The notes under the pieces: generated by a model
What the model saw: the letters and a program-made list of their open reading frames with translations, nothing else
Told to the model about the DNA's origin: nothing
Databases searched by the model: none
Position numbers and translations under genes: made by a program
Shown: positions 7,001 to 62,501 of the stretch, piece after piece
How the letters are laid out: each line of letters starts with the position of its first letter
How positions within the stretch are numbered: the stretch's first letter is position 1
Source of the DNA: Gemmatales bacterium
Lineage (GTDB): Bacteria > Planctomycetota > Planctomycetia > Gemmatales > HRBIN36
DNA: 64,000 nt
Direction: 5' to 3'
Assembly: GCA_041640595.1 (NCBI GenBank)
Contig: JBEPZY010000003.1
Location: 244,773-308,772 of the forward strand

Positions 7001-7484
7001 GAACACGGCAACCCATCTTTCCTTTCGTTAACGCAACGTGGAGGCGAACGACGGTCGGACTACGTCTGCCGGCGAACACGGTAACCCACCTTTCTTTTCG
7101 TCGCCGCAACGCCAAGCTGTGCCGCGATGCCTGCTTATTCGGTGGACTAAACAGTCACGTTGCCCGAGTTGGCCCGCCGTCACCGCAGCCGACAGCGTCA
7201 TCGGCTTCGCTGATTCTGGACTCCCCGCGTAATGTGGAACAGATGGGGCTAGTGGCATCCCTTGCAGGTGGGGTAATCCGCAGCAACGATGCGAATGTGA
7301 AGCTCGTCGTCGGGCTAATCCCGAATCTATAGCCGCTAACCGACACCCTCCTCGTCCGTAACGAAACGAATGTGAATCTCGTCGTCGGGCTAACGGCGTT
7401 GCCAGCAGGCGAGCTAATTCAATCCGGCAAGCGTCAGTGGTTCCGCTGTGACCAGCTAATGGCCGTTGCCTGCAGGCGACCTAA
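7001..7484. repeat. Three repeat-insert-repeat duplications: 7001-7038/7074-7111 (38 bp), 7283-7318/7358-7393 (36 bp), 7389-7417/7455-7484 (29-30 bp)
   Basis: Direct alignment by eye; unique inserts of 35, 39 and 37 bp. Confidence 0.8.
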
Positions 7485-7538
7485 GGCCCTCCGGCCGAAC
7501 GGCTCGCCAGTGCTAATCGCCGGCAGAAACGGGTCGGA

Positions 7539-10500
7539 CTAAGGAGCAGCGCCGCGGGATTTTTGCAGCTCCTGCCAGACGGCCAGCAAGTCTTTATGTT
7601 CCGGATCGTCCAGCAGTTGGCGGAAGCGCGGTTGCAGTTCTGGTTCCTGCCAGAAACTGGCCAGCAGTTCGGCAGTGCGACGCATGGCTAACTCACGCTG
7701 TTTCGGTTCCGGCAGGCGTTTCGCTTCCTGATATTTGCAGTAAACCAGGTTGTAGCAAGCGTCCAGGTAAACCCGTCGGATCATGCCACCTCGTTCCAGA
7801 TGTGGCTGCAAGGCCGTGCGTAATTGATCCCAGCGAGCAATAGCACCGCGCGGACCGCTGTAAAGCTCCTGCTCCTGCATGAGCAGAATCTGCAGGGCCA
7901 CGTATTGCGGATGTTTTTCGAGTTTGGCTTTTTTCATGCCTTCCAGCAGTATTTTGTCGGCTTCTAGCAGCAGGGCAGTGGCCTTGTCGGGCATGTTGGC
8001 TTTCTTGAGCGTCTGTGCTTGCAGTCGCATGCTGTCCACTTCCAGATACAGCGCCTGGCCATAAATCCGCGTTTGTTCTTCGGCGCTGGTCTCCGGAAGG
8101 TTGAAAGCCTGTTCACGGAGTCCGCGCGCCACCTGGGCTGCGGCTTCGTGTTCGCCGATGCTCTGGTAGCTGGTAACGATCCAGAAGCGAAACTCTGTGG
8201 GCAGTTTTTCGTCCTTGCTGAGGTCGTCGAGGAAGGCCTTGAAATTACGGCGTGTTTGTTCCAGTTCTTTAGCAGCCGCGGGACCCTGGCTTTCAAGCAA
8301 GCGGATTTGTTCGCGCAACTGTGTGCCCATTTCTCGCAAGATCGGCAACACCCCCTGGCCGAGTTCTTGTTGCTTTCCGGCACGATAAAGCTCTTGCAGC
8401 AGTTTCCTCGCCTCATCCATCCGCTTGAGTTGCACATAACTACGCAGAGCCAGCGTGATTACTCGTCCGGTGGTCCCCTGGGGTAAACTGGCGGGCAATT
8501 CGTTTTTGATAGCCCGCGGCAAAATGACCTGCAGATACTTGAGGGATTCGTCCGGTTTATTGATCAAAGCCAGGGCTTCGGCCAGGAAAACGAGTGCCTG
8601 GATGTAACGGGTTTCTTCGGGACTATTCGGAGTGGGTTTGCTCTTATCGTATGCTGCCAGAGCATCGCGTAAAAGTTTAATGGCCTTATCCAGATCGGGA
8701 GAGGGGGTGGACAGTGGTTTCCCCTCCTTGGTCATTAGCGTGGCGTGAAGACGAAACGCCAGTTCGCCAGCCTCGGCGCAAGCGGCGGCGTAGAAGGGTG
8801 AGTTAGGACTCACCGCCTCCCATTGCTTCAGGGCATCCCGATGGCGACCGTTTGCAAAGTAGATAAATCCGAGGCGAAATCTGGCCGTATCGGCTTCCGG
8901 TTCTTTCGGCCAACGCTCGACGATGAGTTCGGCCATGCGGCGCAAGCGCTGGGCATCGGCCACCAGAGCGGCTGGATTGTCGCGCTGGCGCTGAACCAGT
9001 TCACCGTACAAGGTCATGGCCGCCAGGGCAGCTCGGCGAGCGGTCGCCGGACTGAACCGCGGCTCCTGAGCGGCGTATTCGAGCAACACGGCGGCCCGGT
9101 AGAGATCACCTTGCCCCTGCAGGTAACCACTGACCAGGTACTGCAACAGGTTCTCCCGGTCGCTAACGCTGGCTTCTGCACCGGCGCGTTGCCAGGCGCG
9201 ACGCGCTGCTGTCAACAGATTCGTGAAGTGCTCCTGAACCTGCTGTTGCAATTTTTGCTTTTCTTCGGCAGATGCCTTTTCGATGGCTTGCAATTTTTCC
9301 TGGATTTCCTCAGCTTCGAGGCTGGCACGGAGCAGAAGTTCCTCGAAGGTGGTCAGTTCTTCTATGCGGCGTGCGGTTACCCGCCCGGAAAGGCGCAAGG
9401 TGTTGAACTTCACCCATCGGGCAACGTTGGCAAATTCCGGATTGCCTTCGATGTCTTTATCAAGCAGGCTCAGTACCTGGTCCACCATTTTCTGGCCCGT
9501 GGGGCTTTGCCGGACAGGGGGTTTCATCTCCTGCAGTTCATCGCGGATGGTCATGGCCAGAATGAGCCGCAAATGCTGCGCTTCTCGGGAGGAATAAACG
9601 GTTTTGAAGTCCGGGCTCTTGGGTGAAGCGAAAGAATTGAGCCAGGTGCGGATGTCGTTTTGCAGGGCCAGCCTTTCTTTGGCAGGCAAGCCAGGCGCAT
9701 AACGCCCGCGGATGCGGAAATAGCCGACGAGACGTTTGGCTTCGAAAGCTAACGGCTCTTTTACGGACTCAATGAGCTTGAAAGCGTTTTGCTGCTCGGT
9801 TTCGTTGAGGCCGGACTGACTCACGCCATACCACGCCCATCCGACCCAACCCAACGCATGCTCTTTACGGAAATCAAACATGGTCTTGAACAACTCCGCT
9901 GCCTGCTGGCGTGTCTTACCGGCGTCAGCCTCTTGCTTGAGGTAACGCTGCTGAAGGATAGATTTGGCCAGGAGCGCGCGACCGTGTTCCAGCAACGTTT
10001 GCAGATACATCTCGGTGCGGTTACGGGCGGTGCCGAGCTGAGTTTTCAACATTCCCTCCGCCTGGGTGAACATCTTGTCGGCCTGGTCGAAGATTTGCAC
10101 CGCATGTTTGGCCAGCTCAACCTGCGCGCTCTTATCAGCGGTGTAAGTAATTTCGCTTACTTTACCATGTCCTTCATCCGCCAGTAACGTGGCCAGTTGC
10201 CGATAGGCCTCGCCCAGTGCCGGGCTTTTGGATTTGGCCTTATCGTTGACAAACGCTTGATACATATTGCGTGCCTCGTCGAGCAACCGTCGGCGTTCGG
10301 AATCCTGTGTGGCCTGGGCAGCCTGTTGCCGTTTGGCCGATGCTTCCTCCATATACAACCAGTCGCGGACGTCTTCCGGTACGTCTTTGCGTTGCCGCAA
10401 CTGCGCGGAATACTCGTCGGCCAGGTCGTAAAATCCACGTTGTCGGAGACCGCGAATGAAATCCAGATAAGGTGGGGTGGCTGCCGGTTCCTGTGCCAAC

Positions 10501-10565
10501 GCAAATATCCCACCTATCAGCCACGCGATACCGACGAATGTGAGCGGTCGCATGATTGTCCTCAC
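7539..10565 (-). CDS. Large secreted alpha-helical/TPR-like hypothetical protein
   Basis: Signal peptide ending ALA-QEP; helical repeats such as IVERWPKEPEADTARFRLGFIYF; 1008 aa. Confidence 0.7.
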   Translation of the reverse strand: MRTIMRPLTFVGIAWLIGGIFALAQEPAATPPYLDFIRGLRQRGFYDLADEYSAQLRQRKDVPEDVRDWLYMEEASAKRQQAAQATQDSERRRLLDEARNMYQAFVNDKAKSKSPALGEAYRQLATLLADEGHGKVSEITYTADKSAQVELAKHAVQIFDQADKMFTQAEGMLKTQLGTARNRTEMYLQTLLEHGRALLAKSILQQRYLKQEADAGKTRQQAAELFKTMFDFRKEHALGWVGWAWYGVSQSGLNETEQQNAFKLIESVKEPLAFEAKRLVGYFRIRGRYAPGLPAKERLALQNDIRTWLNSFASPKSPDFKTVYSSREAQHLRLILAMTIRDELQEMKPPVRQSPTGQKMVDQVLSLLDKDIEGNPEFANVARWVKFNTLRLSGRVTARRIEELTTFEELLLRASLEAEEIQEKLQAIEKASAEEKQKLQQQVQEHFTNLLTAARRAWQRAGAEASVSDRENLLQYLVSGYLQGQGDLYRAAVLLEYAAQEPRFSPATARRAALAAMTLYGELVQRQRDNPAALVADAQRLRRMAELIVERWPKEPEADTARFRLGFIYFANGRHRDALKQWEAVSPNSPFYAAACAEAGELAFRLHATLMTKEGKPLSTPSPDLDKAIKLLRDALAAYDKSKPTPNSPEETRYIQALVFLAEALALINKPDESLKYLQVILPRAIKNELPASLPQGTTGRVITLALRSYVQLKRMDEARKLLQELYRAGKQQELGQGVLPILREMGTQLREQIRLLESQGPAAAKELEQTRRNFKAFLDDLSKDEKLPTEFRFWIVTSYQSIGEHEAAAQVARGLREQAFNLPETSAEEQTRIYGQALYLEVDSMRLQAQTLKKANMPDKATALLLEADKILLEGMKKAKLEKHPQYVALQILLMQEQELYSGPRGAIARWDQLRTALQPHLERGGMIRRVYLDACYNLVYCKYQEAKRLPEPKQRELAMRRTAELLASFWQEPELQPRFRQLLDDPEHKDLLAVWQELQKSRGAAP

Positions 10566-10695
10566 TCGCCCTTGCTCAGGATTGCTTGAAATGCCCGGTT
10601 GGCCGGACGGCTCTGGTAACTTCTGGGAGCAGAAGCCAGCCTTTCTTCCTTAGTATAAGGTTAAAGCAAGGCTCGCCAAAGTGGAGGGAAGACGC

Positions 10696-12018
10696 GTGAA
10701 GGTCTTAGTCGTCGGCAAGGGTGGTCGAGAACACGCCCTGTGCTGGAAGCTGCGACAATCGCCGCGAGTGCAGGCCGTTTACTGCGCCCCGGGCAACGCG
10801 GGCACAGCTCAGGATGCCATCAACATAGACATCGAACCCACCGACATCGAACGTCTGGTACGTTTCGCGCAGCAAGAGGGGATCGGCCTGACGGTGGTCG
10901 GCCCGGAAGAACCTCTGGCACTGGGCATTGTGGACGCCTTTGAAAAAGAGGGACTGCGCATCTTCGGCCCGACCAAGGCAGCTGCGGAGCTGGAAGCCAG
11001 CAAGGTCTTCGCCAAAGAGCTGATGCGGCAGTTCGACATTCCCACTGCCGATTTTCGCATTTTTGACCATCCTGACGCAGCCCGAAAGTACATCGAGACG
11101 CGCGACTATCCGGTCGTGGTCAAGGCTGACGGACTGGCCGGGGGCAAAGGGGCTGTCGTATGCAGCACCAGGGAAGAAGCGCTGGCGGCCGTGGATAAGA
11201 TCATGGTGCAGCAAGCCTTTGGTCCGGCCGGAAGGCGCATCGTCATCGAACGCCGGCTCGAAGGTCAAGAGCTGAGCGTCCTGGCTCTGGTCAGCGGTCG
11301 CACTATCGTTATGCTCGAACCCACGCAAGACCATAAAGCCGCCTTTGACGAAGACCGCGGTCCGAACACCGGAGGCATGGGAGCATACTGCCCGGCTCCG
11401 ATCGGCACACCGGAGCTGATGCGGGAAATCGAGCGCACTGTGCTGGTGCCGGCTGTGCATGGCATGCGACGATTGCACCGACCGTTTCGCGGCGTGCTTT
11501 ACGCCGGACTCATGATTACGCCGCAGGGACCGCGGGTTCTGGAATTCAACGTCCGCTTCGGCGATCCCGAGACCCAACCGTTGATGGTACGGCTGAAGAC
11601 CGACCTGTGTGCCTTGCTGGAGGCGGTCGTGGACGGTCAGCTGGAGACCTTCGCCGAGCAAGGCCTGGAATGGGACAGTCGCCCTGCCGTGTGTGTGGTG
11701 CTGGCCTCGGAAGGTTATCCGGGCCCGTATCAGAAAGGGCGAACTATCACCGGGTTAGACCGTGCGGCTCAACTGCCTGACGTCAAAGTTTTCCACAGCG
11801 GTACGAAATTTTCGGACGGGCGCATTGTCACCGACGGCGGACGGGTTTTGTCGGTTACTGCTTTAGGGGAAAACTTGCTGGAGGCTAAACGTCGGGCCTA
11901 CGAGGCGGTGAAGTGCATCGAATTTGCCGGCATGTTTTACCGTCGCGATATTGCTGACCGGGCTATTCGCCGTTTACGTCTCACTCAGCCAGGCAGTGAA
12001 ACCGTGAGCGGATCGTGA
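10696..12018 (+). CDS. purD: Phosphoribosylamine--glycine ligase
   Basis: GGREHAL, APGNAG, VVGPEEPL, KADGLAGGKG, GPNTGGMGAY, EFNVRFGDPETQ. Confidence 0.97.
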   Translation: MKVLVVGKGGREHALCWKLRQSPRVQAVYCAPGNAGTAQDAINIDIEPTDIERLVRFAQQEGIGLTVVGPEEPLALGIVDAFEKEGLRIFGPTKAAAELEASKVFAKELMRQFDIPTADFRIFDHPDAARKYIETRDYPVVVKADGLAGGKGAVVCSTREEALAAVDKIMVQQAFGPAGRRIVIERRLEGQELSVLALVSGRTIVMLEPTQDHKAAFDEDRGPNTGGMGAYCPAPIGTPELMREIERTVLVPAVHGMRRLHRPFRGVLYAGLMITPQGPRVLEFNVRFGDPETQPLMVRLKTDLCALLEAVVDGQLETFAEQGLEWDSRPAVCVVLASEGYPGPYQKGRTITGLDRAAQLPDVKVFHSGTKFSDGRIVTDGGRVLSVTALGENLLEAKRRAYEAVKCIEFAGMFYRRDIADRAIRRLRLTQPGSETVSGS

Positions 12019-12025
12019 AAGTGCT

Positions 12026-12574
12026 ATGATGGCGGTCAATTGCCAGAACGCAGCGGTGCAAAGGTGTGATGAGCCGCGTTTCGTTTGCGACGCCATGCTG
12101 GGCGGTTTGGCCCGCTGGCTGTGTGCCTGGGGATATGATGCGATTTTCCTTCGGGATGTTGCCGACTGGGACCTGATTCGCGTGGCTCAGCAACAAGGAC
12201 GGATTCTGTTGTCCAGTGATCGCGGCATCTTTCAGATTGGCTGGGTGAGGGACGGGGATTTACCGGCACTGTTCATTCCGCCCGGCATCCACCGGCAGCA
12301 ACAGCTCGAACTGGTCTGTCAGCATTTCCGGTTGCCTCGCCGTGAACCTCACTGCATGCGCTGCGGTGGTCAGTTGCACGAAGTTGCCAAACAAGATGTC
12401 TGGGAGCGAATTCCTCCGAAAACTCGCCTCTGGCTCGACCATTTCTATCAGTGCCAGCGCTGTGGTCAGCTATTCTGGGAAGGAACCCACTGGCAGCAGA
12501 TCGAACGCCATCTCGAATCGCTGCACGAGAAACTCGCCACCACTGAGTGCGTCACCAGGTCTTCCCAGCGCTAG
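12026..12574 (+). CDS. Mut7-C RNase (PIN-like) domain protein
   Basis: RFVCDAMLGGLARWL..GYDA, RILLSSD, CMRCGG and CQRCGQLFWEGTHW. Confidence 0.88.
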   Translation: MMAVNCQNAAVQRCDEPRFVCDAMLGGLARWLCAWGYDAIFLRDVADWDLIRVAQQQGRILLSSDRGIFQIGWVRDGDLPALFIPPGIHRQQQLELVCQHFRLPRREPHCMRCGGQLHEVAKQDVWERIPPKTRLWLDHFYQCQRCGQLFWEGTHWQQIERHLESLHEKLATTECVTRSSQR

Positions 12575-12617
12575 CGCCAGTGTCTTGTCGAAAGGCGTTT
12601 ACAGCGAGTCAGTCGGC

Positions 12618-13994: not shown

Positions 13995-14145
13995 GGTTTT
14001 GTCCCTTTCTGGCTGCCTGCGCTGACGATAGCGGCTGGTTCCTCAAGGCCGACTTCTCAGTATCCGCATCTATCCAGAAATTCGCCAGTGGCTGCATGCG
14101 ACCGCTTGTCCGGATAGGAGCCCCGACCAATCGGCCGCTGCTATG

Positions 14146-14706: not shown

Positions 14707-14857
14707 GTGCTACTTAGACCTTTTCAAGATATGCACGGTGCCATTGGCCGCACACGGTTCATCTGAAGTATAGGCCTTGCTTTTTGTATAGTACAGGCCG
14801 GCCCTGTCGCCGAATTATTTTCCGCGGTGTCGCTTCTAATGGTTGCCAGCGCCTCCG

Positions 14858-21380: not shown

Positions 21381-22394
21381 ATTATCTAGGATGCTTAGTC
21401 ATCGAAGGACGCGGATGCTTAACCTTGATTTGCCGCAGTCCATGTGAGTATTAGACAAGATGCTCGGTCATGGTAGGAACCCATTTGCTCTTGTCTCTAA
21501 CCAGGACGGAATAGGCATTAGCTTAGGAGATGTCGCTTCCGGTAGGAACTAGCTGGCGCTTCAAACGCCAAACAGAGGACGGACTAGGACTTAGCACAGC
21601 AGGTCTTGCTTTCCCTATTCGTATCCTGACAGCCGGAACAAATTCACTTAGTCCCAGTTGACTATGTGTGGATTGACATCTGCAGGAGTCTTACAATCCT
21701 AACAGCCGGAACAAGTTCCCTCAGTTCCAGTTGGCACCCCGGCGATAAAGAAGATTAGGCCCAGCAGTGTGATTTCGCTGACGTACTGATGACATATTGT
21801 TCGCCCCAGCGGTAAAGAGGATTAGGCCGAGCAGTTTTTCTGTTTTGTAATACTTGACGACGGTTGTTAACCCAGCGGTGAAGAGGATTAGGCCCAGCAG
21901 CCCCGGCTTTAAACGTCCACCAAGTTCAACCTTAGAGTTGCCACCCTGGCGGCAAAGAAGACCAAACCCAGCACCGAGACGCTACACTGTCCGCCACAGT
22001 TTGCCGGCCCAGCGGGAAAAATTGAGCTTGGCAACCAGGCGCCACACTGTCGGCCACACTTGAGGCCGATATGCAGCGATTGCAAAGAAAAGCTGCACGG
22101 GACTGGCAACCAGGCTCCACACTGTCAGCCACACTTGAGTGCATAGGGGGAATGGAAGCTCAACCACTAAATGTCCGGCGGCTTAGTAGGTTTTTAATAA
22201 TGACGCAATAACTTAGCTGGTGGAAGCTCAACCATTAAATGTCCCGCGGCGGCCAGATGCTCGCTGATAACTGGTGCCAGCGCGGGAGTGGAGGCTCAAC
22301 CATGAAATCTCACGCGAGATTGCTGGTCGACATCCGAAAATGTGGCTTCAGGGCATAGGGGGAGCGGAGGCCGAACCATGAGATGGCTCTGCGG
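21381..22394. repeat. Compound stack of CRISPR-geometry mini-arrays with six different repeat families
   Basis: Families E (21381/21450/21517, weak), F (21503/21576), A (21623-21660/21696-21733), B (21738/21805/21871/21945), C (21971/22029/22104), D (22153/22221/22289/22365); periods mostly 66-76 bp; unique, often AT-richer inserts. Confidence 0.85.
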
Positions 22395-23832: not shown

Positions 23833-23937
23833 ACGGCCACCGTCGCAGCTCAAGCGACCGCAATCGCAGGTAAAGCAACCGCAATCGCAGCCCAAGCGAG
23901 CGCAATCGCAGGTGAAGCGACCGCAATCCAAGGTGAA
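23833..23937. repeat. Five degenerate 21-bp tandem repeats (consensus about GCGACCGCAATCGCAGGTGAA)
   Basis: Units start at 23833, 23854, 23875, 23896 and 23917. Confidence 0.8.
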
Positions 23938-24341
23938 GTTACCAAAAAACACGCCGCCGGTCAAAAGCAAAATCGAAAAATTTTCACTGCGGCGGTAATT
24001 TTCGGCAAGTTGCGGAATGGATAGAAGCTGCCGAGGCGGCGGACGGGCACGATGCGGGAATTGTGCGAAACGCGGAAACTCGGTCCAACCGTGTGTAGCC
24101 GGCGGGTGGGACAGGTACCGTCTGTGAATTTTGCCAGACTAAGAAAGGGTCGCATTGGGCGCTGGTGGCCTGGCTAATGTTCTTGTGAGACCGGCAAGCT
24201 GCGAGTTGACAGGGATCTCATTTAGCCACAATGGCCTGGCCATCCGGTACATGTGCGACACTCAGAAAGGGGCCTATTCCTGACGCGAACTGGACGATAT
24301 TTCGGCCACCGAAGAAAGGCCGCCGGATCGCCCAGAAAGAT

Positions 24342-24452
24342 TCCTGTTGCCGATGCAAACTATAATCCTGCGTCAGGCGCGCTACTGGCGAGTGAGTTCG
24401 CTGGCAGGACCCCGCATCCTATTGTCGGTGCAAACTGTAATCCTGCGTCTGG
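24342..24452. repeat. 36-bp direct repeat pair flanking a 39-bp unique insert
   Basis: 24342-24377 vs 24417-24452, 5 mismatches. Confidence 0.8.
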
Positions 24453-36797: not shown

Positions 36798-36800
36798 ACG

Positions 36801-42536: not shown

Positions 42537-42873
42537 CACGGCGGGCTGACGCCCACCGCTCTTGGTCGTGCGTGCGTATGTGCAGCGTAAAAATCGTTTT
42601 TTCGCCGGCAGAGATGCGCGTTCCGCCACAAGAGCGGGGGGCGTTAGCCCCCCGTGGCGCCGATAAACGCGAATGCAACGGCAATCCGCACACACACCGT
42701 CGGCGGTCTGCCGACGAATAGCGGGCGTGTGTGCGGATGCGATTTTGCCGGCCCACGGCGGGCTGACGCCCGCCGCTCTTGTTCGGATGTGCGGATGTGC
42801 AGCGTAAAAATCGTTTTTTCGCCGGCAGAGATGCGCGTTCGACCGCAAGAGCGGGGGGCGTTAGCCCCCCGTG
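42537..42873. repeat. REP/REPIN cluster 1 (four alternating 26-bp hairpin REPs, ~217-bp unit duplicated)
   Basis: CACGGCGGGC-TGAC-GCCC(A/G)CCGCTCT at 42537 and 42754; inverted AGAGCGGGGGGC-GTTA-GCCCCCCGTG at 42631 and 42848. Confidence 0.85.
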
Positions 42874-43044
42874 GTGTTGCTCTACGCGATGGCAACCCTA
42901 AGGCGACCACAATGGCCTACTGATTTAGTAACGCGTTAGCCCCCCGTGGTGTTGCTCTACGCGATGGCAACGACGGGGTCTGCAAAGTTATCGTGGACCC
43001 CGACGGTCGTTAGCCCCCGTGGTGTCGCTCCACGCGATGGCAAC
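42859..43044. repeat. CRISPR-like mini-array: three 37-38 bp repeats, two unique spacers (37 and 36 bp); repeat derived from a half-REP plus flank
   Basis: CGTTAGCCCCCCGTGGTGTTGCTCTACGCGATGGCAAC at 42859-42896 and 42934-42971 (identical) and 43008-43044 (3 differences). Confidence 0.85.
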
Positions 43045-43156
43045 GGCGGTCGGCACACGTACTCTCGGCGGTCTTCCGAGCGTTCGCGCTCGGGCCGGAT
43101 AGTACTTACGGGCGATCGTAGCAACCGCGAGGGGGTTTGCGAACCGGAGCAGAGCG

Positions 43157-53208: not shown

Positions 53209-53830
53209 GCCCGCCGCTCTTGGTTGCATGTGCGTCTCCGGGTCGCAAATCGCGCATGTTGCAGCCAACGAACGTCGTGCACCAGGAGCGGCTGGCGTGA
53301 GCCAGCCGTGGTAGAGGAAGCGTGCTGGTGGATGGACGACGCAGCTTTGCGCCGGCATTCGGGCATGCAAGGAGGAGCGGCTGGCGTAAGCCAGCCGTGG
53401 TTAGCGAGTCGCGTTTGCAAAAGCGAAACCGCGACTCGCCGGTTACGCCGACCGGTCGCTTCAACGAAACGCCGTTGCAAGTGCGTTACCGAACCACGGC
53501 GGGCCGACGCCCGCCGCTCTTGCGAATGGGCGTTCGCACATCGTAAAAATCGTTTTTTCGCTCGCGGACGTCCGTACACCAACACAAGAGCGGGGGGCGT
53601 CAGCCCCCCGTGGTACCTATATAACGCGAGTGCAAGGGCGATCCGCAGATACACCGTCGGCGGTCTGCCGAACAAGTGCGCTTGTGTCTGCGCGAACGTG
53701 TTTCCCACACGCACGGCGGGCTGACGTGCGGCGCTGTTGATTCTGTGTTGGCCAGTCGCCGAGCATTACGCGATTCTGACCGCAAGACGTTCGGTTCACC
53801 GAGCCACGGCGGGCTGACGCCCGCCGCTCT
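53209..53830. repeat. REP/REPIN cluster 3
   Basis: Multiple full REPs, plus half-REPs at 53209-53220 and 53712-53726. Confidence 0.85.
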
Positions 53831-53905
53831 TGGTTGCATGTGCGTCTGCCCATTGCATCATGCGCGTTTCCGTTGGACGCGGTCGTGATAATGCGCCTGG
53901 TCGCG

Positions 53906-54104
53906 GTGGTAATGGCGTGGATCGTGGTACCGCGGAATGGAGCTCCACGAGTCAGAGACGCAGTGCACACGGAGGGATGTGGTAATGGCGTGGGTCGCAA
54001 TGCCGCCAGATGGGGCGGTACAATGACAGCGTTCGGGCCGGCTGGCTGTCTCTGGCACACCAAGAAGGTCGCGATGCCGCCAGATGGGTCGGTACAATGA
54101 CAGC
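53906..54104. repeat. Two offset repeat-insert-repeat duplications upstream of pabB
   Basis: 53993-54030/54067-54104 (38 bp, 2 mismatches, 36-bp insert) and 53906-53942/53979-54015 (37 bp, more diverged). Confidence 0.8.
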
Positions 54105-54130
54105 AACGGGCGAGCACTGAGGGTAGCGGG

Positions 54131-55645: not shown

Positions 55646-55648
55646 GCC

Positions 55649-56272: not shown

Positions 56273-56311
56273 CGCCGGGCGGCAGGCCACGCCGGGCAAG
56301 CCGCAGGCCCC

Positions 56312-56640
56312 GACTCCCCATTCCGCAACGCTTGAGCCGCAGTTGCCAACGCCTGACTTCCTATTCCCAGTCCCTAAAACCAAGCCCCAATCCGCTATCT
56401 CCAATTCCCGATTGCCCAACCCGAATCCCGAATCCCCGACTGCCAACTTCTAATCCCCAATCGGCAATCCCTGATTCCAAATCCGCTTGCCAGACGCCCA
56501 TCGTGAATGGCCGGTTCCCAGTGCCCAATTCGCAAACTCCTATTCGCAACCCGCAATGGTAAATTGCCGATGGCCCCTCGCTGATTCCCGGTTGTGGATT
56601 CCTCTGCGCCAGCGCTCTCCGCAATTTCCCGCCCTAGCCA
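56312..56640. repeat. Degenerate heptamer tandem repeat tract (about CCCGAAT/CCCCAAT) between convergent genes
   Basis: ctccaat-tcccgat-tgcccaa-cccgaat-cccgaat-ccccgac-tgccaac-ttctaat-ccccaat-cggcaat-ccctgat. Confidence 0.7.
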
Positions 56641-56652
56641 GCCACTCGCCGC

Positions 56653-59600
56653 TCATTTCAAATCGCCGATGTACCAGACTCGAATGGTCTTGTCTTCGCT
56701 TCCCGACACGACGTATTTGCCATCGGGCGTCACCGCAACGCTATTGACGTAATCCGAGTGCCCCGTGAACCGCCGCACTTCTTGCCCCGTCGCCAGGTCC
56801 CACACACGCACCGTTCTGTCCCCGCTTCCTGAAACGACGTATCGGCCATCGGGGGTCACTGCGACGCTCAACACCGTGCCCTCGTGCCCCGTGAACCGCC
56901 GCACTTCTTGCCCCGTCGCCAGGTCCCACACACGCACCGTTTTGTCCCCGCTTCCCGAAACGACGTATTTGCCATCGGGCGTCACCGCAACGCTCCTGAC
57001 CCCCCACTTGTGCCCCGTGAACCGGCGCACTTCTTGCCCCGTCGCCAGGTCCCACACACGCACCGTTTTGTCATCGCTTCCCGAAACGACGTATTTGCCA
57101 TCGGGCGTCACCGCGACGCTCCAGACCCAACCCGCGTGCCCCGCGAACCGCCGCACTTCTTGCCCCGTCGCCAGCTCCCACAAACGCACCGTTTTGTCAT
57201 CGCTTCCCGAAACGACGTATTTGCCATCGGGCGTCACCGCGACGCTCCTAACCCAATCCTGGTGTCCCGTAAGCCGCCGCACCTCTTGCCCCGTCGCCAG
57301 CTCCCACAAACGCACCGTTTTGTCATCGCTTCCCGAAACGACGTATTTGCCATCGGGCGTCACCGCGACGCTCTCGACCGAACTCTCGTGCCCGGTGAAC
57401 CGCCGCACTTCCTTGCCCGTCGCCAGCTCCCACAAACGCACCGTTTTGTCGCGGCTTGCCGAAACGACGTATTTGCCATCGGGTGTCACCGCGACGCTCG
57501 TGACCCCACTATGGTGTTCCGTGAACAGCCGTAGCACGAATGATACGTCCCAGTGCCGAGCCAGAACGCCGGAACTGAAACCCTTGCTGTCCACCGCGCG
57601 AAATTCCAGAGCTAGGCTGTCTCCTTTAACCTGTGGGATCAGCAGTTTCGGCTCCGCTAGCCGTTGCCACTGGGACTGTCCCGCATAGCGCCACTCGACG
57701 TGGACGGCTCGGCCCGGCGGCGAAGCCACCTCGAACTCAACGGTGAATGGGTCGCCCGCTATCGGGCCGTTCGGCGGTATATGTCTGGCGAGCTTCAAAA
57801 TAGGGGGACTGGGAGGGGTAACCTGCCAGCGCTGGTCCACAACAAAACCGACGATGCCCTTGCTGTCCACGGGGCGGAATTCGAGGGCGAGAGTGTCGCG
57901 CTGCACTTCCGGAATCTGCAACTTCGGCTCGGACAAGCGCCGCCACTGGGCCTGTCCCGCATAGCGCCACTCGACGTGGACGGCTCGGCCCACCGGCGAG
58001 GTCACTTCGAACTCAAGAGTGAATGGATCACCTGCTACCGGGCCATTAGGCGGATTCTGCTTGGCGAGTTTGAGCCTCGGGACGGGAACGAAGACCGCCC
58101 AGCGCTCTCGGACGATGGAACCGACGACGCCCTTGCTGTCCACGGCGCGGAATTCGAGAGCCAGAGCGTCGCCGTTGATTTCGGGAATCTGCAACTTTGG
58201 ATCGGTCAAGCACCGCCACTGGGCTTGGCCCGCATAGCGCCATTCGACGCGCACCGGACGGCCCACCGGCGAGGTCACTTCGAACTCAATAGTGAATGGG
58301 TCTCCCGCTACCGGGCCATTGGGCGGATTCTGCTTGGTGATTTTCAGCGTCGGAACCGGAACGAAGACCGCCCAGCGCTCTCGGACGATGGAACCGATGA
58401 AGCCCTTGCTGTCCACGGCGCGGAATTCGACGGCGAGAGTGTCACCCTGGATTTCGGGAATCTGCAACTTGGGGTCGGACAAGCGCCGCCACTGGGCCTG
58501 GCCCGCATAGCGCCACTCGACCTGCACCTCGCGGCCGACTGGTGAGTTGGCCTTGAACTCGATGGTGAACGGCTCGCCGGCGATGGGGCCCTTTTCGGAC
58601 TGGTGTCGAGTAATAGTCAACGTCGGCCTTCTGGCCTCGTACCAGGAGGCGGCAAATGGCGGCGGGCGAACGGCAAACTGGTCGGGTATCCAGCCCAGGG
58701 CGAGAACAGCCACTGCCGAGCCGGCCGATGCGAAAAGCAGACTTCTGAACAGCAAGAGCCGCCAGTCCTGAATTGGTCCGGCTCGCACTGGCACTGCGTA
58801 AGACCAGACGGCAGCACCGGTGCCGACCACCAGCCCCACGAGCGCGCCGAGCCACCAGCAGTTCACTGGCCACCACCACTCGGTCAACACCGCAAGGATG
58901 AGAGCCAGTGTCGCAGATGGCACCCCGACAGCCATCACAGCGGGGATGGTTTGCTTCTCGTTGATCCAGGCGAGGCAGAGGGCAAGCAAGACGAAGGGGG
59001 TGAGCACCACCAGGGCCGCGTAAAGAGGCCCCAGGATCGCCCCGACTAGGCAACCAACCACGGTGCCAGCAAGCACGGGAACCAAGGCCCGCAGCAGGGT
59101 GAGGAACGGATTCCAATTTCTGGCAACCCTGGCCGGTTGGAAAATTTGTGGCGTTGACGGCTGAAGCTGGGTTGCGTTACTGTGCAGATTCGGTTGGGTA
59201 GTCGGAACGGGGATCGGTGCCAGGCCGGGCGAGGCTCTCAGTTGGGGGCGGGCGGAAGCTGAGCCGGTCAGTGGTGCGGCATTGGGCACGGAGCGGTCAG
59301 CGAGACCAGCGCTGGCAAACGACACAGAAGTGGCACTGCTTTGCGGCGATAGAGAACCATTGCGCAGTACCTCTTCGACCTGCCCCTGCTGCAACGCCGT
59401 CAAGGGCCGCACCCAACCAGTAGCCGCATCCGGCACCAGTTCCTGCAAACTGGGCGTTTGCTCAAACGGCTGCACACACGCCAGAATCAGGTGCCCCACC
59501 AGGTTCCGCGTGTTCAGCTCCCGGCAGTTCTTCCACAACTCCCGAAACAACTCCGACCGGCCCGGCTGAGCATAATCCTCCTGGCCAAACACCAGCCTCT

Positions 59601-60345
59601 GGTCGCTGAAGTGTCTGGCCAGCTGCTGGTCGAGCATCAGGCAGCGGAGCGTGGTGTAAATGACCAGGTGGGGAAAGCGGTCCATGAGTGGGCCGTAACG
59701 TCGTTGCGGGTGCTGATAGTTGGGCTGACCGCTTTCATTGCTGGGGAGCGTGTCGAGAGCCGGCACCCAGACGCCATCGTAGTCCACCAGCCGAAGCTTG
59801 ACGCTGTTGGGCCGGTTGCCGGGAATGAACAGGACGTTGCCATGCTGCAAATCGCCGTGGGCAAGGCGGTCGCGTTCGAGTTCGCTGGCCAGTCGGTGCC
59901 ACAACTGGGCCATCGCTTCCAGCAGTTCGCGGGTCTGCGGCCCCGGGCGTTGCAGATGGTGTTGCAGAAACTCATCCAGCCGCTGGCCTTCCACCCACTC
60001 CATCCGCACAATCGGGAACCATTGACCGTTGACGAGGATGCCGCGTGGCTGGTACTGGAAGCGTACCAGGTAGCCCGGACGGCGGTTGCTCAGGTGCTTA
60101 TCGAATGCAGCGTAGCGCGTCTCCAGATTGCGGATGTCGCGGTAGAAGCATTTGATGGCGAATTTGCTGCCATCGGGGGATTGGAGCTGGAAGACCGCCG
60201 CGAAACCGCCCGACCAAACCAGAGGCAGGCCCTGCTTATTCAGGGCAGGCTTGCAGCGTTTCAATTCCGGGTCGGCCAGGAAGAGGTGAGGGTTTTGCAC
60301 CGCCTCGCGGTAATCACTGGTGCCGGGCAGACTCGCGGTGCTCAT
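56653..60345 (-). CDS. Protein kinase-like domain + TM region + 4 Ig-like repeats + 7 WD40 repeats (TerY-P-type triad kinase)
   Basis: GGFAAVF, AIK, MEWVEG, HGDLQHGN, VDYDG, NYQHP; ~91-aa repeats at 57540-58626; 42-aa WD40 repeats at 56660-57525. Confidence 0.85.
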   Translation of the reverse strand: MSTASLPGTSDYREAVQNPHLFLADPELKRCKPALNKQGLPLVWSGGFAAVFQLQSPDGSKFAIKCFYRDIRNLETRYAAFDKHLSNRRPGYLVRFQYQPRGILVNGQWFPIVRMEWVEGQRLDEFLQHHLQRPGPQTRELLEAMAQLWHRLASELERDRLAHGDLQHGNVLFIPGNRPNSVKLRLVDYDGVWVPALDTLPSNESGQPNYQHPQRRYGPLMDRFPHLVIYTTLRCLMLDQQLARHFSDQRLVFGQEDYAQPGRSELFRELWKNCRELNTRNLVGHLILACVQPFEQTPSLQELVPDAATGWVRPLTALQQGQVEEVLRNGSLSPQSSATSVSFASAGLADRSVPNAAPLTGSASARPQLRASPGLAPIPVPTTQPNLHSNATQLQPSTPQIFQPARVARNWNPFLTLLRALVPVLAGTVVGCLVGAILGPLYAALVVLTPFVLLALCLAWINEKQTIPAVMAVGVPSATLALILAVLTEWWWPVNCWWLGALVGLVVGTGAAVWSYAVPVRAGPIQDWRLLLFRSLLFASAGSAVAVLALGWIPDQFAVRPPPFAASWYEARRPTLTITRHQSEKGPIAGEPFTIEFKANSPVGREVQVEWRYAGQAQWRRLSDPKLQIPEIQGDTLAVEFRAVDSKGFIGSIVRERWAVFVPVPTLKITKQNPPNGPVAGDPFTIEFEVTSPVGRPVRVEWRYAGQAQWRCLTDPKLQIPEINGDALALEFRAVDSKGVVGSIVRERWAVFVPVPRLKLAKQNPPNGPVAGDPFTLEFEVTSPVGRAVHVEWRYAGQAQWRRLSEPKLQIPEVQRDTLALEFRPVDSKGIVGFVVDQRWQVTPPSPPILKLARHIPPNGPIAGDPFTVEFEVASPPGRAVHVEWRYAGQSQWQRLAEPKLLIPQVKGDSLALEFRAVDSKGFSSGVLARHWDVSFVLRLFTEHHSGVTSVAVTPDGKYVVSASRDKTVRLWELATGKEVRRFTGHESSVESVAVTPDGKYVVSGSDDKTVRLWELATGQEVRRLTGHQDWVRSVAVTPDGKYVVSGSDDKTVRLWELATGQEVRRFAGHAGWVWSVAVTPDGKYVVSGSDDKTVRVWDLATGQEVRRFTGHKWGVRSVAVTPDGKYVVSGSGDKTVRVWDLATGQEVRRFTGHEGTVLSVAVTPDGRYVVSGSGDRTVRVWDLATGQEVRRFTGHSDYVNSVAVTPDGKYVVSGSEDKTIRVWYIGDLK

Positions 60346-60381
60346 GGGCGGCTCCTCAGCAACCGGGCACGCTCCGCATAA

Positions 60382-61404
60382 TCAGCACTGGATGATCAGT
60401 AGCGTAACATCATCATTAGCCAGTTTATTCAGCTTCCGCAAGTGGCCGACCCAGGAACGGAATCGCTCCTGAGCCTGCGTCGCCACCGTAGTGGCGGTGC
60501 CAGAGGCGAGAGGCTGTGATGCGTGATTTTCGCTTTGCTGGGTCAGGTTGGCTGAGTGATTCGGCGTCGTTTCCGGGGAAGCGTGAACAACTGCTGCTGG
60601 CGGGCCGGCTTCGGCGACCGCAGCGGGGTTCGCGGGAGTATCGGCGTCAGGCTCGAGCAACTGGCGATGGATTTCCTGCCACGGCTGGTTTCCCGATTCG
60701 TATTCGCTCAGAAACCAGCGAGCCAGAGCATCGGTCATCAGCAGGAACGTATCGCCTGTCTTCCAGCGGCGAATGCGCCAGCGCACCGGGGCCGTCGGCC
60801 AGGCAGGCGGTCGGCTCTGGGAACAAAGAAGCGGTGGAGTGTTGCTGAAATCCGCCGCTTTTCGCACGGGGAAGCTGAACACCAGCCGAGTATCCCGCCT
60901 CTGCTGGTCATCCCGCAGATGGAACATGCAGGCATCGCCGACGGCCAGGCAGAAGTAGCGCCGGTTTGCCGACCGGCCCGGTTGGTGCCGCTGGCAGCAC
61001 CTGGTCGGGCGCTGCATGTCGGGCAACAGCACCAGTCCGCAGAACGTGGCTACTGCTCCTTCCCGAATCCGGTCTTCCACGAACCAGGGCCACTGCCCGC
61101 CGCGGGAGCTTTTCAGCTCCCCCAGTCGTTCGCGCCACCGCTTGCGCATCGCTTCCAGCCACCGCGAACATTGCTGCTGAATATCCTGGCGCCATTGCGA
61201 CCGGCCACGGGCTTGCTGGAAAAGACCCGTCCAGCTTGCATCCGTCGCGAAGCCCTCGACGAGAATGTTCGCCCATTCTCGGGAAAACGAGCTTTCGGTA
61301 GCCCCGTCGGCCACGGCAAACCGACATGCCCGGTGAGCGCAGGCATCCTCGTATTCGGCTTCGCTATTGCCTTCTTTCTGAAGCCAGAAATGGTGCACAC
61401 GCAC
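60382..61404 (-). CDS. PP2C-like protein phosphatase
   Basis: EYEDA, FAVADGATES, VGDAC, LMTDAL, NDDVTL. Confidence 0.85.
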   Translation of the reverse strand: MRVHHFWLQKEGNSEAEYEDACAHRACRFAVADGATESSFSREWANILVEGFATDASWTGLFQQARGRSQWRQDIQQQCSRWLEAMRKRWRERLGELKSSRGGQWPWFVEDRIREGAVATFCGLVLLPDMQRPTRCCQRHQPGRSANRRYFCLAVGDACMFHLRDDQQRRDTRLVFSFPVRKAADFSNTPPLLCSQSRPPAWPTAPVRWRIRRWKTGDTFLLMTDALARWFLSEYESGNQPWQEIHRQLLEPDADTPANPAAVAEAGPPAAVVHASPETTPNHSANLTQQSENHASQPLASGTATTVATQAQERFRSWVGHLRKLNKLANDDVTLLIIQC

Positions 61405-61417
61405 GTCCAGGCCCTAA

Positions 61418-62299
61418 CTATTGCGGCGCAATAGGCTGAGTAGCTCGAGTGCCGATGTTGAAAAATTTTATTACTCCTTCCAGGTCGCCCTGGTAAACAA
61501 AACCCCGTGCTGTGTCGGCAATCCGACACTGGGGCAGCAACTTGCGGGCCTCAGCGATCAGGAGCTCAGGCATCACGCTCGTCAATCGAAACATCAGCCG
61601 AGCGTATTCATCGGGCAATACGCTCTCGTTGTCCGGAAAGTAGATCACAGGGCCAGGCATCGCCGAAATACACGCATTGAAAAGCAGCACCTGTCCGTCG
61701 GTGGTTTGCAGGTTGCGAATGCGTTGCACCGCCAATTCCACCTGCTGCAGGACCGTCGGCGTCATCCGACCGGATTCATCGGTGGGCTGACCGTCGGTCA
61801 AATTCATGACCACCGGCGGATAGGCATTCGGATATCGCTGCACAAAAGCCTCCAGTGCGCGATAAGCCAGTTCCAGAGCCTCGAACATCGGGGTCGGGCC
61901 CTCGGCTTTTGGCTCGAACCAGATAGGAAAATTCACCGTATACGTGGTCAACCCGCCCGCGCCATCGTAAATCGTTTTATCACGACGCTCGACCCGCAGC
62001 GGATTCATGGCAATCTGGCTGATCGGAAGCAACTCCCCGGACTGCAGCGTTCCGCCCAGGGTGAAGCCCACGTCCGCACCATATCCGATGATGCCCACGA
62101 AATACCGATCCAGTATTTCGTCTCCTTTCGTTGCTCGGGAGACCAGTTCGGCCAAACATCGGTTCAGGGCATCCGCGACACCGTCGGCTTTGCGAATGTT
62201 GGGGTTGTTGCCAAACGGTTCGCTCATCGAACCGGACTGATCGATCAGGAACAGGAAGCAGGTCGGATTTCGGCGACTGATTTCCGCACTGTAAGCCAT
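61418..62299 (-). CDS. von Willebrand factor A domain protein (TerY-like)
   Basis: FLIDQSGSM (MIDAS DxSxS), GPTPM, NLTDGQPTD. Confidence 0.88.
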   Translation of the reverse strand: MAYSAEISRRNPTCFLFLIDQSGSMSEPFGNNPNIRKADGVADALNRCLAELVSRATKGDEILDRYFVGIIGYGADVGFTLGGTLQSGELLPISQIAMNPLRVERRDKTIYDGAGGLTTYTVNFPIWFEPKAEGPTPMFEALELAYRALEAFVQRYPNAYPPVVMNLTDGQPTDESGRMTPTVLQQVELAVQRIRNLQTTDGQVLLFNACISAMPGPVIYFPDNESVLPDEYARLMFRLTSVMPELLIAEARKLLPQCRIADTARGFVYQGDLEGVIKFFNIGTRATQPIAPQ

Positions 62300-62394
62300 G
62301 CCGCATCCTCCAACGGTCGAGCCACGATTTTCCAGACGCCGCTGGCTATACGAATTTCATTATTACGGCCCAATAGCCGCCGGACAAGCAGCCC

Positions 62395-62501
62395 GGACAG
62401 CCGTCGGCCGAGCAGCGGGAAACATGCCCGTCGAACATCGCTGGCTCGAATCCGGCCGCTCGGTTGGACACTCGTGGGCCGGGCTGCGGGGAACATGCCC
62501 G
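62395..62501. repeat. 36-bp direct repeat pair flanking a 35-bp unique insert
   Basis: 62395-62430 vs 62466-62501, 6 mismatches. Confidence 0.75.

What the first reader, a model, noticed from the sequence alone, without database searches (positions are those of the whole stretch)
7001..62501. Window-wide family of duplication-plus-insert scars with CRISPR geometry but locus-specific repeats (candidate natural neo-CRISPR / promiscuous spacer-integration system)
Seen in sequence: six unrelated intergenic regions (7001-7484, 21381-22394, 24342-24452, 42859-43044, 53906-54104, 62395-62501) show a local segment directly repeated around a unique insert. Sizes fall mostly into two classes: 36-38 bp repeat with period 71-76, and ~30 bp repeat with period 66-68. 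Inserts are typically 35-39 bp. Repeat sequences differ between loci, and copy divergence ranges from identical to about 30%, implying events of different ages. Established knowledge: Cas1-Cas2 duplicates a repeat-length target when inserting a spacer, and off-target integration producing new mini-arrays has been shown experimentally in E. coli. Inference: an integrase with a fixed ruler (perhaps two Cas1-Cas2 systems with ~37 and ~30 bp repeats encoded elsewhere, or an unknown enzyme) has repeatedly written short DNA pieces into non-CRISPR sites, and only intergenic hits survived. No cas gene lies in this window, so the enzyme is unidentified.
Basis: partly seen in the sequence, partly recalled or inferred. 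Interest (0 to 1): 0.92.

Follow-up and report, generated by a model that had tools for sequence, protein, structure and literature searches.

The report
Misplaced CRISPR spacers across a genome
The repeat-insert-repeat units in this window are most likely scars left where the bacterium's two CRISPR spacer-inserting enzymes pasted spacers into ordinary non-coding DNA, an error known from laboratory work and preserved here about two hundred times in a wild hot-spring planctomycete.

Summary
All six loci hold locus-specific direct repeats around unique inserts. Outside the true arrays, an offset scan finds 177 hits at period 65-68 and 243 at 72-76. Background is about 2-5 per offset, and a simulated genome gives 0. 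Duplication length follows period: about 30 nt and about 37 nt. The genome has two CRISPR arrays with exactly these dimensions: a 30-nt repeat with period 66-67, and a 37-nt repeat with period 73-74. Each lies beside its own module, cas2-cas1-cas4 or cas2-RT-cas1. Inserts are unrelated to their flanks. One insert nearly equals a true-array spacer. Others match a co-assembled element (C15) that 32 true spacers target, own genes, or 23S rDNA, some beside the array's CCN PAM. Sampled relatives show almost none. No pre-insertion allele was seen and nothing was tested at the bench. The mechanism is known (neo-CRISPR, Nivala 2018); the natural scale is not. This scan reached the same reading earlier on other windows of this genome.

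The parts
7001..7111 (.). 37-nt-class scar: 38-nt duplication (84% identical), period 73, around a 35-nt insert
7285..7393 (.). 37-nt-class scar: 34-nt duplication (91%), period 75
7397..7495 (.). 30-nt-class scar: 32-nt duplication at 81% (21-nt core at 90%), period 67
21623..21733 (.). 37-nt-class scar, period 73, 87%; first unit of the multi-unit locus
21730..21974 (.). Four-copy mini-array with mixed rulers: periods 67 and 66 (30-nt class) followed by 74 (37-nt class), all sharing the same right-hand boundary; three different inserts
21969..22139 (.). Three-copy family: a weak older copy (period 60, 69%) and a 36-nt pair at period 75 (94%)
22134..22385 (.). 30-nt-class mini-array at 22153/22221/22289 (periods 68 and 68; 93% and 86%), plus older copies at 22270 and 22346
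24342..24452 (.). 37-nt-class scar, period 75, 86-88%. A weaker pair at 24263/24333 (period 70, 72%) is doubtful
42858..42971 (.). Youngest scar in the window: 39-nt duplication, 100% identical, period 75; the target begins inside a REP-type hairpin
42941..43049 (.). Older scar (92%, period 73) whose duplicated segment overlaps the younger one but is shifted by 5-8 nt, so the site was re-used out of register
   Evidence: X2, X3 and X17 contigs cover its insert and third repeat copy (records 9, 17 and 1)
53906..54016 (.). Old 37-nt-class scar: 38 nt at 76% (19-nt core at 95%), period 73
53993..54104 (.). 37-nt-class scar: 38-nt duplication, 95%, period 74, just upstream of the anthranilate synthase gene
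   Evidence: Spanned by contigs of two other runs (X2 record 11 and X17 record 6)
62395..62501 (.). Old scar: 36-nt duplication, 83%, period 71
   Evidence: Spanned by X17 record 8 and X2 record 16; three runs carry a 3-nt insertion behind 62464
4818..4853 (.). Likely source (protospacer) of a 37-nt-class insert that sits elsewhere in the genome (C1:519557): about 31 of 36 bases match by my count of the printed pair, both ends match, and the flanks are unrelated
   Evidence: n20

Best explanation
These units are scars of off-target (non-canonical) spacer integration by the genome's own two Cas1-Cas2 integrases.

Inferred mechanism: each enzyme makes its two staggered strand-transfer attacks a fixed distance apart. 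The distance is 30 bp for the cas2-cas1-cas4 module beside array A and 37 bp for the cas2-RT-cas1 module beside array B. The enzyme joins a prespacer of about 36-37 nt between the attack points, and gap repair duplicates the intervening host segment. That segment becomes a locus-specific 'repeat' on both sides of the insert.

Targets are not repeat-like, apart from a preference for G at the first base and C at the last base of the 30-bp segment. Once formed, some sites are used again and grow into arrays of 3-4 units. Scars persist mainly in non-coding DNA and then decay by mutation.

What is shown: the geometry, the match to the two arrays, the presence of the enzymes, the foreign and self origin of some inserts, and gain or loss of whole units between paralogous copies. 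What is inferred: the chemistry, which module made which class, and selection as the reason for the intergenic location.
For: 1. Geometry. Outside the true arrays there are 177 hits at d=65-68 and 243 at d=72-76, with a background of about 2-5 per offset and 0 in a Markov-simulated genome.
2. Ruler. The duplicated length has mode 30 (IQR 28-32, n=176) for d=65-68, and mode 36-38 for d=72-76 (n=240). The insert (d minus L) is mostly 35-39 nt in both classes.
3. True arrays. Array A has 344 repeats of 30 nt with spacers of mode 36. Array B has 247 repeats of 37 nt with spacers of mode 37. The intergenic period spectra mirror the arrays.
4. Enzymes. The genome has exactly two Cas1 and two Cas2 matches. 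One pair sits with cas4, cas3, cas5 and cas7 plus a Cmr module beside array A; the other sits as cas2-RT-cas1 beside array B's leader.
5. Inserts are unique DNA. Their identity to the adjacent flank is 0.265 against 0.243 for random DNA, and 240 of 269 resemble no other insert.
6. Inserts share the spacer pool.
   - The insert at C2:174386 matches the true A spacer at C8:12369-12404 (31-nt alignment, 1 mismatch).
   - 31 A spacers and 1 B spacer hit contig C15, with a 5'-CCN PAM at 26 of 31 and 29 of 32 alignments on one strand.
   - Three inserts (n95 and its paralog n160, and n132) also match C15.
   - n49, n168 and n150 each match a single own-genome site with unrelated flanks. Of the five independent 30-nt-class sources, CCN lies next to three (n49, n168, n132), one is ambiguous (n150) and one lacks it (n95/n160). 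This is my reading.
   - n150 and n158 come from the 23S rRNA gene.
7. Boundaries. The 30-nt class starts with G in 33 of 63 (p=1e-4) and ends with C in 34 of 63 (p=3e-5). This matches the rule for off-target integration by P. furiosus Cas1-Cas2 in vitro, 'guanines and/or cytosines 30 base pairs apart' (PMC6698737, abstract and passages read).
8. Growth. Two paralogous copies with about 93% identical flanks (my estimate from the alignment) differ by whole-unit indels: 135 nt, which equals 68+67, exactly at a repeat boundary, and a second block of two units. There are 21 in-register continuations with new inserts, where uniform placement predicts about 0.5 (my arithmetic).
9. Specificity. Samples of relatives scanned the same way gave: G027 (no cas1 found), 0 non-triplet hits in 400 kb; G004, 0 in 196 kb; G002 (only the RT-type cas1), 1 scar of the 37-nt class and none of the 30-nt class in 193 kb; G003, 2-3 scars in 376 kb. 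This genome's C2 gives 104 hits in 400 kb.
10. Not an assembly artefact. Contigs from runs of other studies span loci 5 and 6 with the units present.
Against: - No pre-integration (empty) allele was observed. Relatives are only 78-82% identical in the neighbouring gene and their intergenic DNA does not align. Metagenome contigs break at the one scar with identical repeats.
- Only about 10 of 269 inserts have an identifiable source. The PAM evidence rests on five loci whose boundaries are uncertain by 2-4 nt, and one of the five lacks the PAM.
- Targets do not resemble the true repeats: the mean best match is 12.5 of 30 against 12.0 for the control, and 14.6 of 37 against 14.4. Target choice is therefore largely unexplained.
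- Close relatives carry the same modules yet have few scars, and I could not find the reason.
- The 25 'coding' pairs are mostly triplet periods, and several are plain protein repeats, so they do not prove in-frame survival.
- Gene calls come from a crude codon-usage caller of my own.
- Nothing was tested biochemically.
Confidence: 0.9

Rival explanations
1. An unknown integrase or mobile element with a fixed ruler, unrelated to Cas1-Cas2, inserts short DNA and makes 30-bp or 37-bp target-site duplications.
For: Targets do not resemble CRISPR repeats. No enzyme was tested.
Against: This would need two unknown rulers that happen to equal the two arrays' repeat lengths, and an insert length spectrum that equals the arrays' spacer spectra. 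Inserts are unique, not copies of an element: 240 of 269 resemble no other insert. One insert nearly equals a true spacer, and others derive from the element that the array targets.
Confidence: 0.03
2. Ordinary tandem duplication or replication slippage of units of about 70 bp, with one half of each unit decaying faster than the other.
For: A few full-length tandem duplications with similar periods do exist, in this genome (L greater than d) and in G003.
Against: In the clean set the similarity stops sharply after 30 or 37 nt, while the repeat halves are still 85-100% identical. The insert is at random-level identity to the next unit (0.265 against 0.243; 1 of 269 above 0.6). Slippage predicts neither two exact rulers nor inserts that match distant loci.
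Confidence: 0.02
3. They are decayed or horizontally acquired fragments of many different foreign CRISPR arrays (mini-arrays brought in by mobile elements).
For: 4 of 140 pairs of the 30-nt class carry degenerate copies of the true A repeat (for example C3:328836). These may be displaced or orphan pieces of a real array.
Against: It would take about 196 loci with unrelated repeats, all sharing only the host's two geometries. The repeats have host-like composition and are continuous with host intergenic sequence. Paralogous host loci differ by whole units. The flanks are ordinary housekeeping genes with no mobile-element genes.
Confidence: 0.03
4. They are functional cis-regulatory or small-RNA repeats kept by selection at a fixed spacing.
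For: Many lie upstream of genes. Older scars are shared among strains from several hot-spring samples.
Against: The sequences are locus-specific, with no shared motif beyond the end bases. Rfam and tRNA searches found nothing. There is no excess of secondary structure (p=0.10 and p=0.20) and no preference for one type of intergenic region (p=0.13). The copies decay continuously from 100% to about 80% identity.
Confidence: 0.02

Closest known systems
Neo-CRISPR loci from non-canonical spacer integration (Nivala, Shipman and Church 2018, Nat Microbiol 3:310). The paper itself is not held. I know it through citing texts: 10.1101/148544 and PMC7054753 (passages read).
   Same: A spacer is inserted outside the array, a repeat-length host segment is duplicated around it, and the new site can become a small array.
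   Different: That work used E. coli over-producing type I-E Cas1-Cas2. Natural evidence was called 'circumstantial' for two other species (10.1101/148544, passage read). Here about 200 fixed events lie in one wild genome, made by two different modules (one with Cas4, one with a reverse transcriptase), and the targets do not resemble the repeats.
Off-target full-site integration by Pyrococcus furiosus Cas1-Cas2 in vitro (PMC6698737; abstract and passages read)
   Same: Paired attacks 30 bp apart at G/C positions in non-CRISPR DNA. My 30-nt class starts with G in 33 of 63 and ends with C in 34 of 63.
   Different: That system is in vitro on plasmids, and its preferred sites shared several conserved positions with the repeat. 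Here the events are natural and fixed in a genome, and no overall likeness to the repeat is detectable.
Isolated or orphan CRISPR arrays (Shmakov et al. 2020, CRISPR J; not held; known through PMC13142298, passages read)
   Same: Off-target spacer acquisition is one of the three proposed origins of arrays that lie away from cas genes.
   Different: Those are arrays with recognisable CRISPR repeats, found by CRISPR finders. Here most units are single repeat-insert-repeat scars whose 'repeats' are ordinary host sequence.
RT-associated CRISPR adaptation modules
   Same: Array B is flanked by cas2, a stand-alone reverse transcriptase and cas1. One insert of the 37-nt class derives from 23S rRNA sequence.
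   Different: My four literature searches turned up no description of off-target integration by such a module. RNA origin of the inserts is not shown.
Transposon or casposon target-site duplications
   Same: A staggered integration followed by gap repair duplicates the target.
   Different: The inserts are about 36 nt of unique DNA, not copies of an element with ends and genes. From my own recollection, not checked here, known target-site duplications are much shorter.

Membership tests
Off-target Cas1-Cas2 spacer integration (neo-CRISPR) | A host segment of exactly repeat length is duplicated around an insert of spacer length | tested here: met
   Duplication mode is 30 nt at period 65-68 and 36-38 nt at period 72-76; inserts are 35-39 nt.
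Off-target Cas1-Cas2 spacer integration (neo-CRISPR) | The dimensions equal those of a cognate CRISPR array in the same genome | tested here: met
   Array A: 30-nt repeat, spacers of mode 36. Array B: 37-nt repeat, spacers of mode 37. The period spectra match.
Off-target Cas1-Cas2 spacer integration (neo-CRISPR) | cas1 and cas2 are present in the genome | tested here: met
   Two Cas1 and two Cas2 matches, each pair beside an array.
Off-target Cas1-Cas2 spacer integration (neo-CRISPR) | Inserts are drawn from the same pool and by the same rules as true spacers (shared targets, PAM) | tested here: inconclusive
   One insert nearly equals a true spacer, and three match the targeted contig C15. 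CCN lies beside 3 of 5 independent sources, 1 is ambiguous and 1 lacks it. About 10 of 269 inserts have any source.
Off-target Cas1-Cas2 spacer integration (neo-CRISPR) | A precise empty (single-copy) allele exists in relatives or strains | tested here: inconclusive
   Relatives are too diverged. Contigs break at the youngest scar. As a proxy only, paralogous loci differ by exact whole units.
Off-target Cas1-Cas2 spacer integration (neo-CRISPR) | The enzyme is shown to make such products | not testable with these tools
   This needs integration assays or genetics.
Canonical CRISPR array | One conserved repeat sequence shared by the array and recognised by the system's processing enzyme | tested here: not met
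   Repeats are locus-specific. Likeness to the true repeats is at control level, except in 4 of 140 pairs.
Transposable element with target-site duplication | The inserts are copies of one element family | tested here: not met
   240 of 269 inserts resemble no other insert; the 29 that do lie in paralogous loci.
Ordinary tandem duplication | The whole unit (repeat plus insert) is duplicated | tested here: not met
   Identity of the insert to the next flank is 0.265 against 0.243 for random DNA; 1 of 269 exceeds 0.6.

The most novel reading that the evidence does not exclude
In this lineage both integrases work in vivo with almost no dependence on repeat or leader sequence, needing only a ruler and G/C ends, so all non-coding DNA is a substrate. 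The re-used sites would then be CRISPR arrays caught at birth: there are 21 in-register continuations, arrays of up to four units, and paralogs that differ by whole units. If so, the genome is a natural, datable record both of how new arrays arise and of what the cell's integrases sampled, including its own rRNA and a resident small virus or plasmid. A lineage-specific change in a fidelity factor or in expression would explain why sister genomes with the same modules have 30-50 times fewer scars.
Probability: 0.3. Interest if true: 0.9.

Novelty: new member of a known kind. Interest (0 to 1): 0.78.

Why it matters
Off-target spacer integration has been shown in engineered E. coli and in test tubes. 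How often it happens in nature, and whether it can seed new arrays, is open; the citing literature speaks of circumstantial evidence in two species (10.1101/148544, passage read).

This genome offers about 217 fixed intergenic events from two unlike adaptation modules, with an age spectrum running from identical repeats down to about 80% identity. That makes several questions directly measurable:
- the in vivo target rules (G and C ends, no likeness to the repeat);
- the natural fidelity of leader recognition;
- re-use of new sites;
- the cost to the genome, roughly 15 kb of added DNA by my arithmetic (217 units of about 70 nt).

It is also a warning for annotation. CRISPR finders will call these units 'questionable arrays', while Tandem Repeats Finder misses them altogether.

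Tried and rejected
- **Known RNA genes.** The period is tRNA-sized, but ARAGORN found 0 genes and Rfam found 0 hits in the window.
- **Third peak at period 87-93.** This is a different thing: a dispersed REP-like hairpin element with the same sequence everywhere.
- **Targets resemble the true repeats.** Rejected. Similarity is at control level apart from 4 of 140 pairs.
- **Targets are hairpin or cruciform DNA.** Rejected. MFE does not differ from intergenic controls (p=0.10 and p=0.20), and REP hairpins occur at 2 of 217 targets against 128 of 3000 controls.
- **Different repeat families abut as a rule,** as they do in the window's large locus. Rejected. Only 4 of 64 neighbouring families abut.
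- **Multi-unit loci belong to a mobile element or a gene family.** Rejected. Only pieces of 57-90 nt are shared, and the neighbouring 420-aa gene has no paralog beside other loci.
- **Preference for convergent, divergent or tandem intergenic regions.** Not significant (p=0.13).
- **Loss of HU/IHF as the cause.** Rejected at the level of gene presence: 2 copies here and 2 in each same-genus relative.
- **Empty sites from relatives.** The orthologous upstream regions in G003, G002 and G005 have no such repeats, but the G003 and G002 regions do not align with the window (59% column identity), so this is not evidence.
- **Empty sites from public runs.** No contig joins across a unit at the loci shown. 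Contigs end at the identical repeats of locus 4, and the joints table was cut, with 143 joints not shown. This neither supports nor contradicts polymorphism.
- **In-frame survival in genes.** The coding pairs are mostly triplet periods, but several are plain protein repeats, so the argument is dropped.
- **C15 identity.** No PHROG hit for 9 of 9 ORFs. Pfam gives a matrixin-like peptidase and a below-cut-off match to a protein-primed DNA polymerase.
- **Papers not obtainable.** Nivala 2018 and Shmakov 2020. What they report about natural sites is known to me only through citing papers.

Full report
**Observation.** That parse gives 15 such pairs. A sixteenth row (23843-23938, period 63) is a 21-nt coding tandem repeat and is unrelated. 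Tandem Repeats Finder reports none of these units. ARAGORN and Rfam find no RNA gene in the window. The flanking genes are ordinary: cysteine synthase-type PALP enzyme, anthranilate synthase, S49 peptidase, metallo-beta-lactamase fold, thioesterase and FHA protein.

**Genome-wide test.** The window is C3:244773-308772 of a 4.45-Mb assembly in 42 contigs. I counted, for every offset from 10 to 250, the places where a 30-nt window matches itself at that offset in at least 25 positions. After removing three blocks that are true CRISPR arrays, 177 hits remain at offsets 65-68 and 243 at offsets 72-76. Neighbouring offsets hold about 2-5 hits each, and a first-order Markov genome of the same size gives 0 at every offset from 60 to 79. 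A third peak at 87-93 is a dispersed REP-like hairpin element with the same sequence everywhere, so it is a different phenomenon.

**The ruler.** Extending each hit without gaps, the duplicated segment has its mode at 30 nt (IQR 28-32, n=176) for periods 65-68, and at 36-38 nt for periods 72-76 (n=240, with a tail of longer true tandem repeats). The insert is mostly 35-39 nt in both classes. A clean set, filtered by length, holds 269 pairs (140 of the 30-nt class and 129 of the 37-nt class) in 196 loci. Eleven of these pairs lie in this window.

**The true arrays and their enzymes.**
- Array A runs from C10:65244 across a contig break to C8:21080. It has 344 repeats of 30 nt and 341 spacers of 35-40 nt (mode 36).
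- Array B (C1:359742-377934) has 247 repeats of 37 nt and 246 spacers (mode 37).
- The genome has exactly two Cas1 and two Cas2 matches.
- Beside array A lie cas2, a 458-aa cas1, cas4, cas3, cas5, cas7 and a type III-B Cmr set.
- Beside the leader of array B lie cas2, a 550-aa reverse transcriptase and cas1.

The period spectra of intergenic scars follow those of the arrays. For the 30-nt class they are 65:15, 66:47, 67:40, 68:16 against the array's 36, 155, 95, 26. For the 37-nt class they are 72:6, 73:33, 74:35, 75:21, 76:4 against 12, 81, 99, 38, 11.

**Nature of the inserts.** Inserts are no more like the sequence after the second repeat, or before the first, than random DNA (median identity 0.265 against 0.243; 1 of 269 above 0.6). 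Also, 240 of 269 inserts resemble no other insert; the 29 that do lie in paralogous loci.

Some inserts have sources:
- The insert at C2:174386 matches a spacer of true array A over 31 nt with 1 mismatch.
- 31 A spacers and 1 B spacer hit contig C15 (9.6 kb, 50% GC). Most of them lie in the cas-proximal, newest part of array A. They show a 5'-CCN motif at 26 of 31 protospacers, and 29 of 32 alignments fall on one strand. This marks an active type I system with primed adaptation.
- Three inserts at locus-specific or degenerate repeats also match C15 (n95 and its paralog n160, and n132).
- Three more match single own-genome sites with unrelated flanks (n49, n168, n150).
- For the 37-nt class, n20 matches window 4818-4853, and n158 matches the 23S rRNA gene, as does n150.

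Reading the printed flanks, CCN adjoins 3 of 5 independent sources of the 30-nt class; one is ambiguous and one lacks it. The boundaries are uncertain by 2-4 nt, so this support is modest.

**Targets.** The duplicated host segments do not resemble the true repeats. The mean best match is 12.5 of 30 against 12.0 in controls, and 14.6 of 37 against 14.4. Four of 140 pairs are degenerate true repeats. The 30-nt class does start with G (33 of 63, p=1e-4) and end with C (34 of 63, p=3e-5); the 37-nt class shows the same bias weakly. This agrees with the in vitro rule reported for P. furiosus Cas1-Cas2, which integrates off-target where G or C lie 30 bp apart (PMC6698737, abstract and passages read). 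Hairpin propensity, REP hairpins and type of intergenic region do not explain target choice.

**Location and age.** My crude codon-usage gene caller covers 79% of the genome. By its calls, 217 of 269 pairs are fully intergenic, 27 partly coding and 25 coding. The coding pairs have mostly triplet periods, but several are plain protein repeats, so I draw no conclusion from them. Repeat-pair identity runs from 100% (17 pairs) down to the detection floor near 80%. The 30-nt class is younger on average: 32 of 118 intergenic pairs are at least 95% identical, against 12 of 99 for the 37-nt class.

**Growth of sites.** Two paralogous loci (C1:296501-297100 and C1:328701-329400), whose flanks are about 93% identical by my estimate from the alignment, differ by a 135-nt gap. 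That gap equals two units (68+67) and lies exactly at a repeat boundary. A second block of two units also differs. Genome-wide, 21 pairs continue the same register with a new insert, whereas uniform placement in 935 kb of intergenic DNA predicts about 0.5 (my arithmetic). In the window, locus 4 shows an older and a younger event on overlapping segments shifted by 5-8 nt. The four-copy array at 21730-21974 mixes 30-nt and 37-nt events that share one boundary.

**Relatives and strains.** I ran the same scan on samples of related genomes:

| Genome | cas1 status | DNA sampled | Result |
|---|---|---|---|
| G027 (same order) | none found | 400 kb | only triplet-period hits |
| G004 (same family) | one cas1 | 196 kb | no hits |
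| G002 (same genus) | RT-type only | 193 kb | its own 37-nt-repeat array and one scar of that class; none of the 30-nt class |
| G003 (same genus) | both types | 376 kb | 2-3 scars |
| This genome, contig C2 | both types | 400 kb | 104 hits |

The accumulation is therefore specific to this lineage. HU/IHF gene number does not differ from the same-genus relatives. Twenty public runs from 15 studies, mostly hot-spring metagenomes, hold this DNA or close strains. Contigs of runs from other studies span loci 5 and 6 and the older unit of locus 4 with the units present. No empty allele was seen, and the youngest scar was not bridged. The best named relative of a flanking gene is a Planctomycetota MAG at 78% identity.

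**What is known.** Off-target integration giving 'neo-CRISPR' loci was shown in E. coli by Nivala et al. 2018. That paper is not held. Citing texts say natural evidence was circumstantial, in two species (10.1101/148544; PMC7054753). Off-target acquisition is one proposed origin of isolated arrays (Shmakov 2020, not held; cited in PMC13142298). HU raises integration fidelity in a Thermotoga system (PMC13769266, abstract read). Four full-text searches found no description of hundreds of natural scars in one genome, nor of off-target integration by an RT-linked module. Supplements and the two papers I could not read may hold more.

**Earlier notes.** Earlier notes of this scan on other windows of the same genome reached the same reading. 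I formed mine before reading them, and I do not count them as evidence.

**Verdict.** The mechanism is a known kind. The natural scale, the involvement of two modules and the re-use of sites make it a valuable case.

Noticed in passing
window 42754-42781, 42846-42874 and 53805-53832; genome-wide pairs at period 87-93: A dispersed REP-like hairpin (CCACGGCGGGCTGACGCCCGCCGCTCTTG and variants) occurs in pairs around a unit of about 62 nt. It gives 217 offset hits genome-wide and very high contig depth around window 53300-53990.
   Followed up: partly
G000 contig C15 (locus L016, 9585 bp): A small 50%-GC contig hit by 31 array A spacers and 1 array B spacer. It is mostly ORFans, with a matrixin-like peptidase and a below-cut-off match to protein-primed type-B DNA polymerase. 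It is probably a small virus or plasmid of this host.
   Followed up: partly
G000 C5:166219-170885 (locus L017 6220-10886): The 23S rRNA gene is the source of two off-target inserts, one of each class (n150, n158). The n158 copy differs from the host gene at several positions.
   Followed up: partly
G000 C8:21500-21700 (between the last array A repeat and cas2): The presumed leader of array A holds three copies of a G-rich motif of about 29 nt, spaced roughly 63-72 nt apart, so it may itself contain scar-like units.
   Followed up: no
G000 C8:22440-23816 (locus L003 1141-2517, minus strand): The cas1 beside array A encodes 458 aa, with the Cas1 domain only at residues 157-412. The N-terminal part of about 150 aa has no Pfam match. 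The G003 ortholog sits in a similarly long open frame (477 aa).
   Followed up: no
window 56653-60345 (minus-strand ORF, 1230 aa): A large gene with 126-nt (6.7 copies) and 273-nt (3.1 copies) tandem repeats. Paralogs of this repeat family are the likely source of one 37-nt-class insert (n144).
   Followed up: no
window 23843-23938: A 21-nt tandem repeat (4.6 copies) inside a small ORF without a Pfam match.
   Followed up: no
locus L035 12975-13187 (G002 C115 end): The same-genus relative G002 has an array whose 37-nt repeat differs from array B's repeat at four positions. It starts right after its cas1 and runs off the contig end.
   Followed up: no
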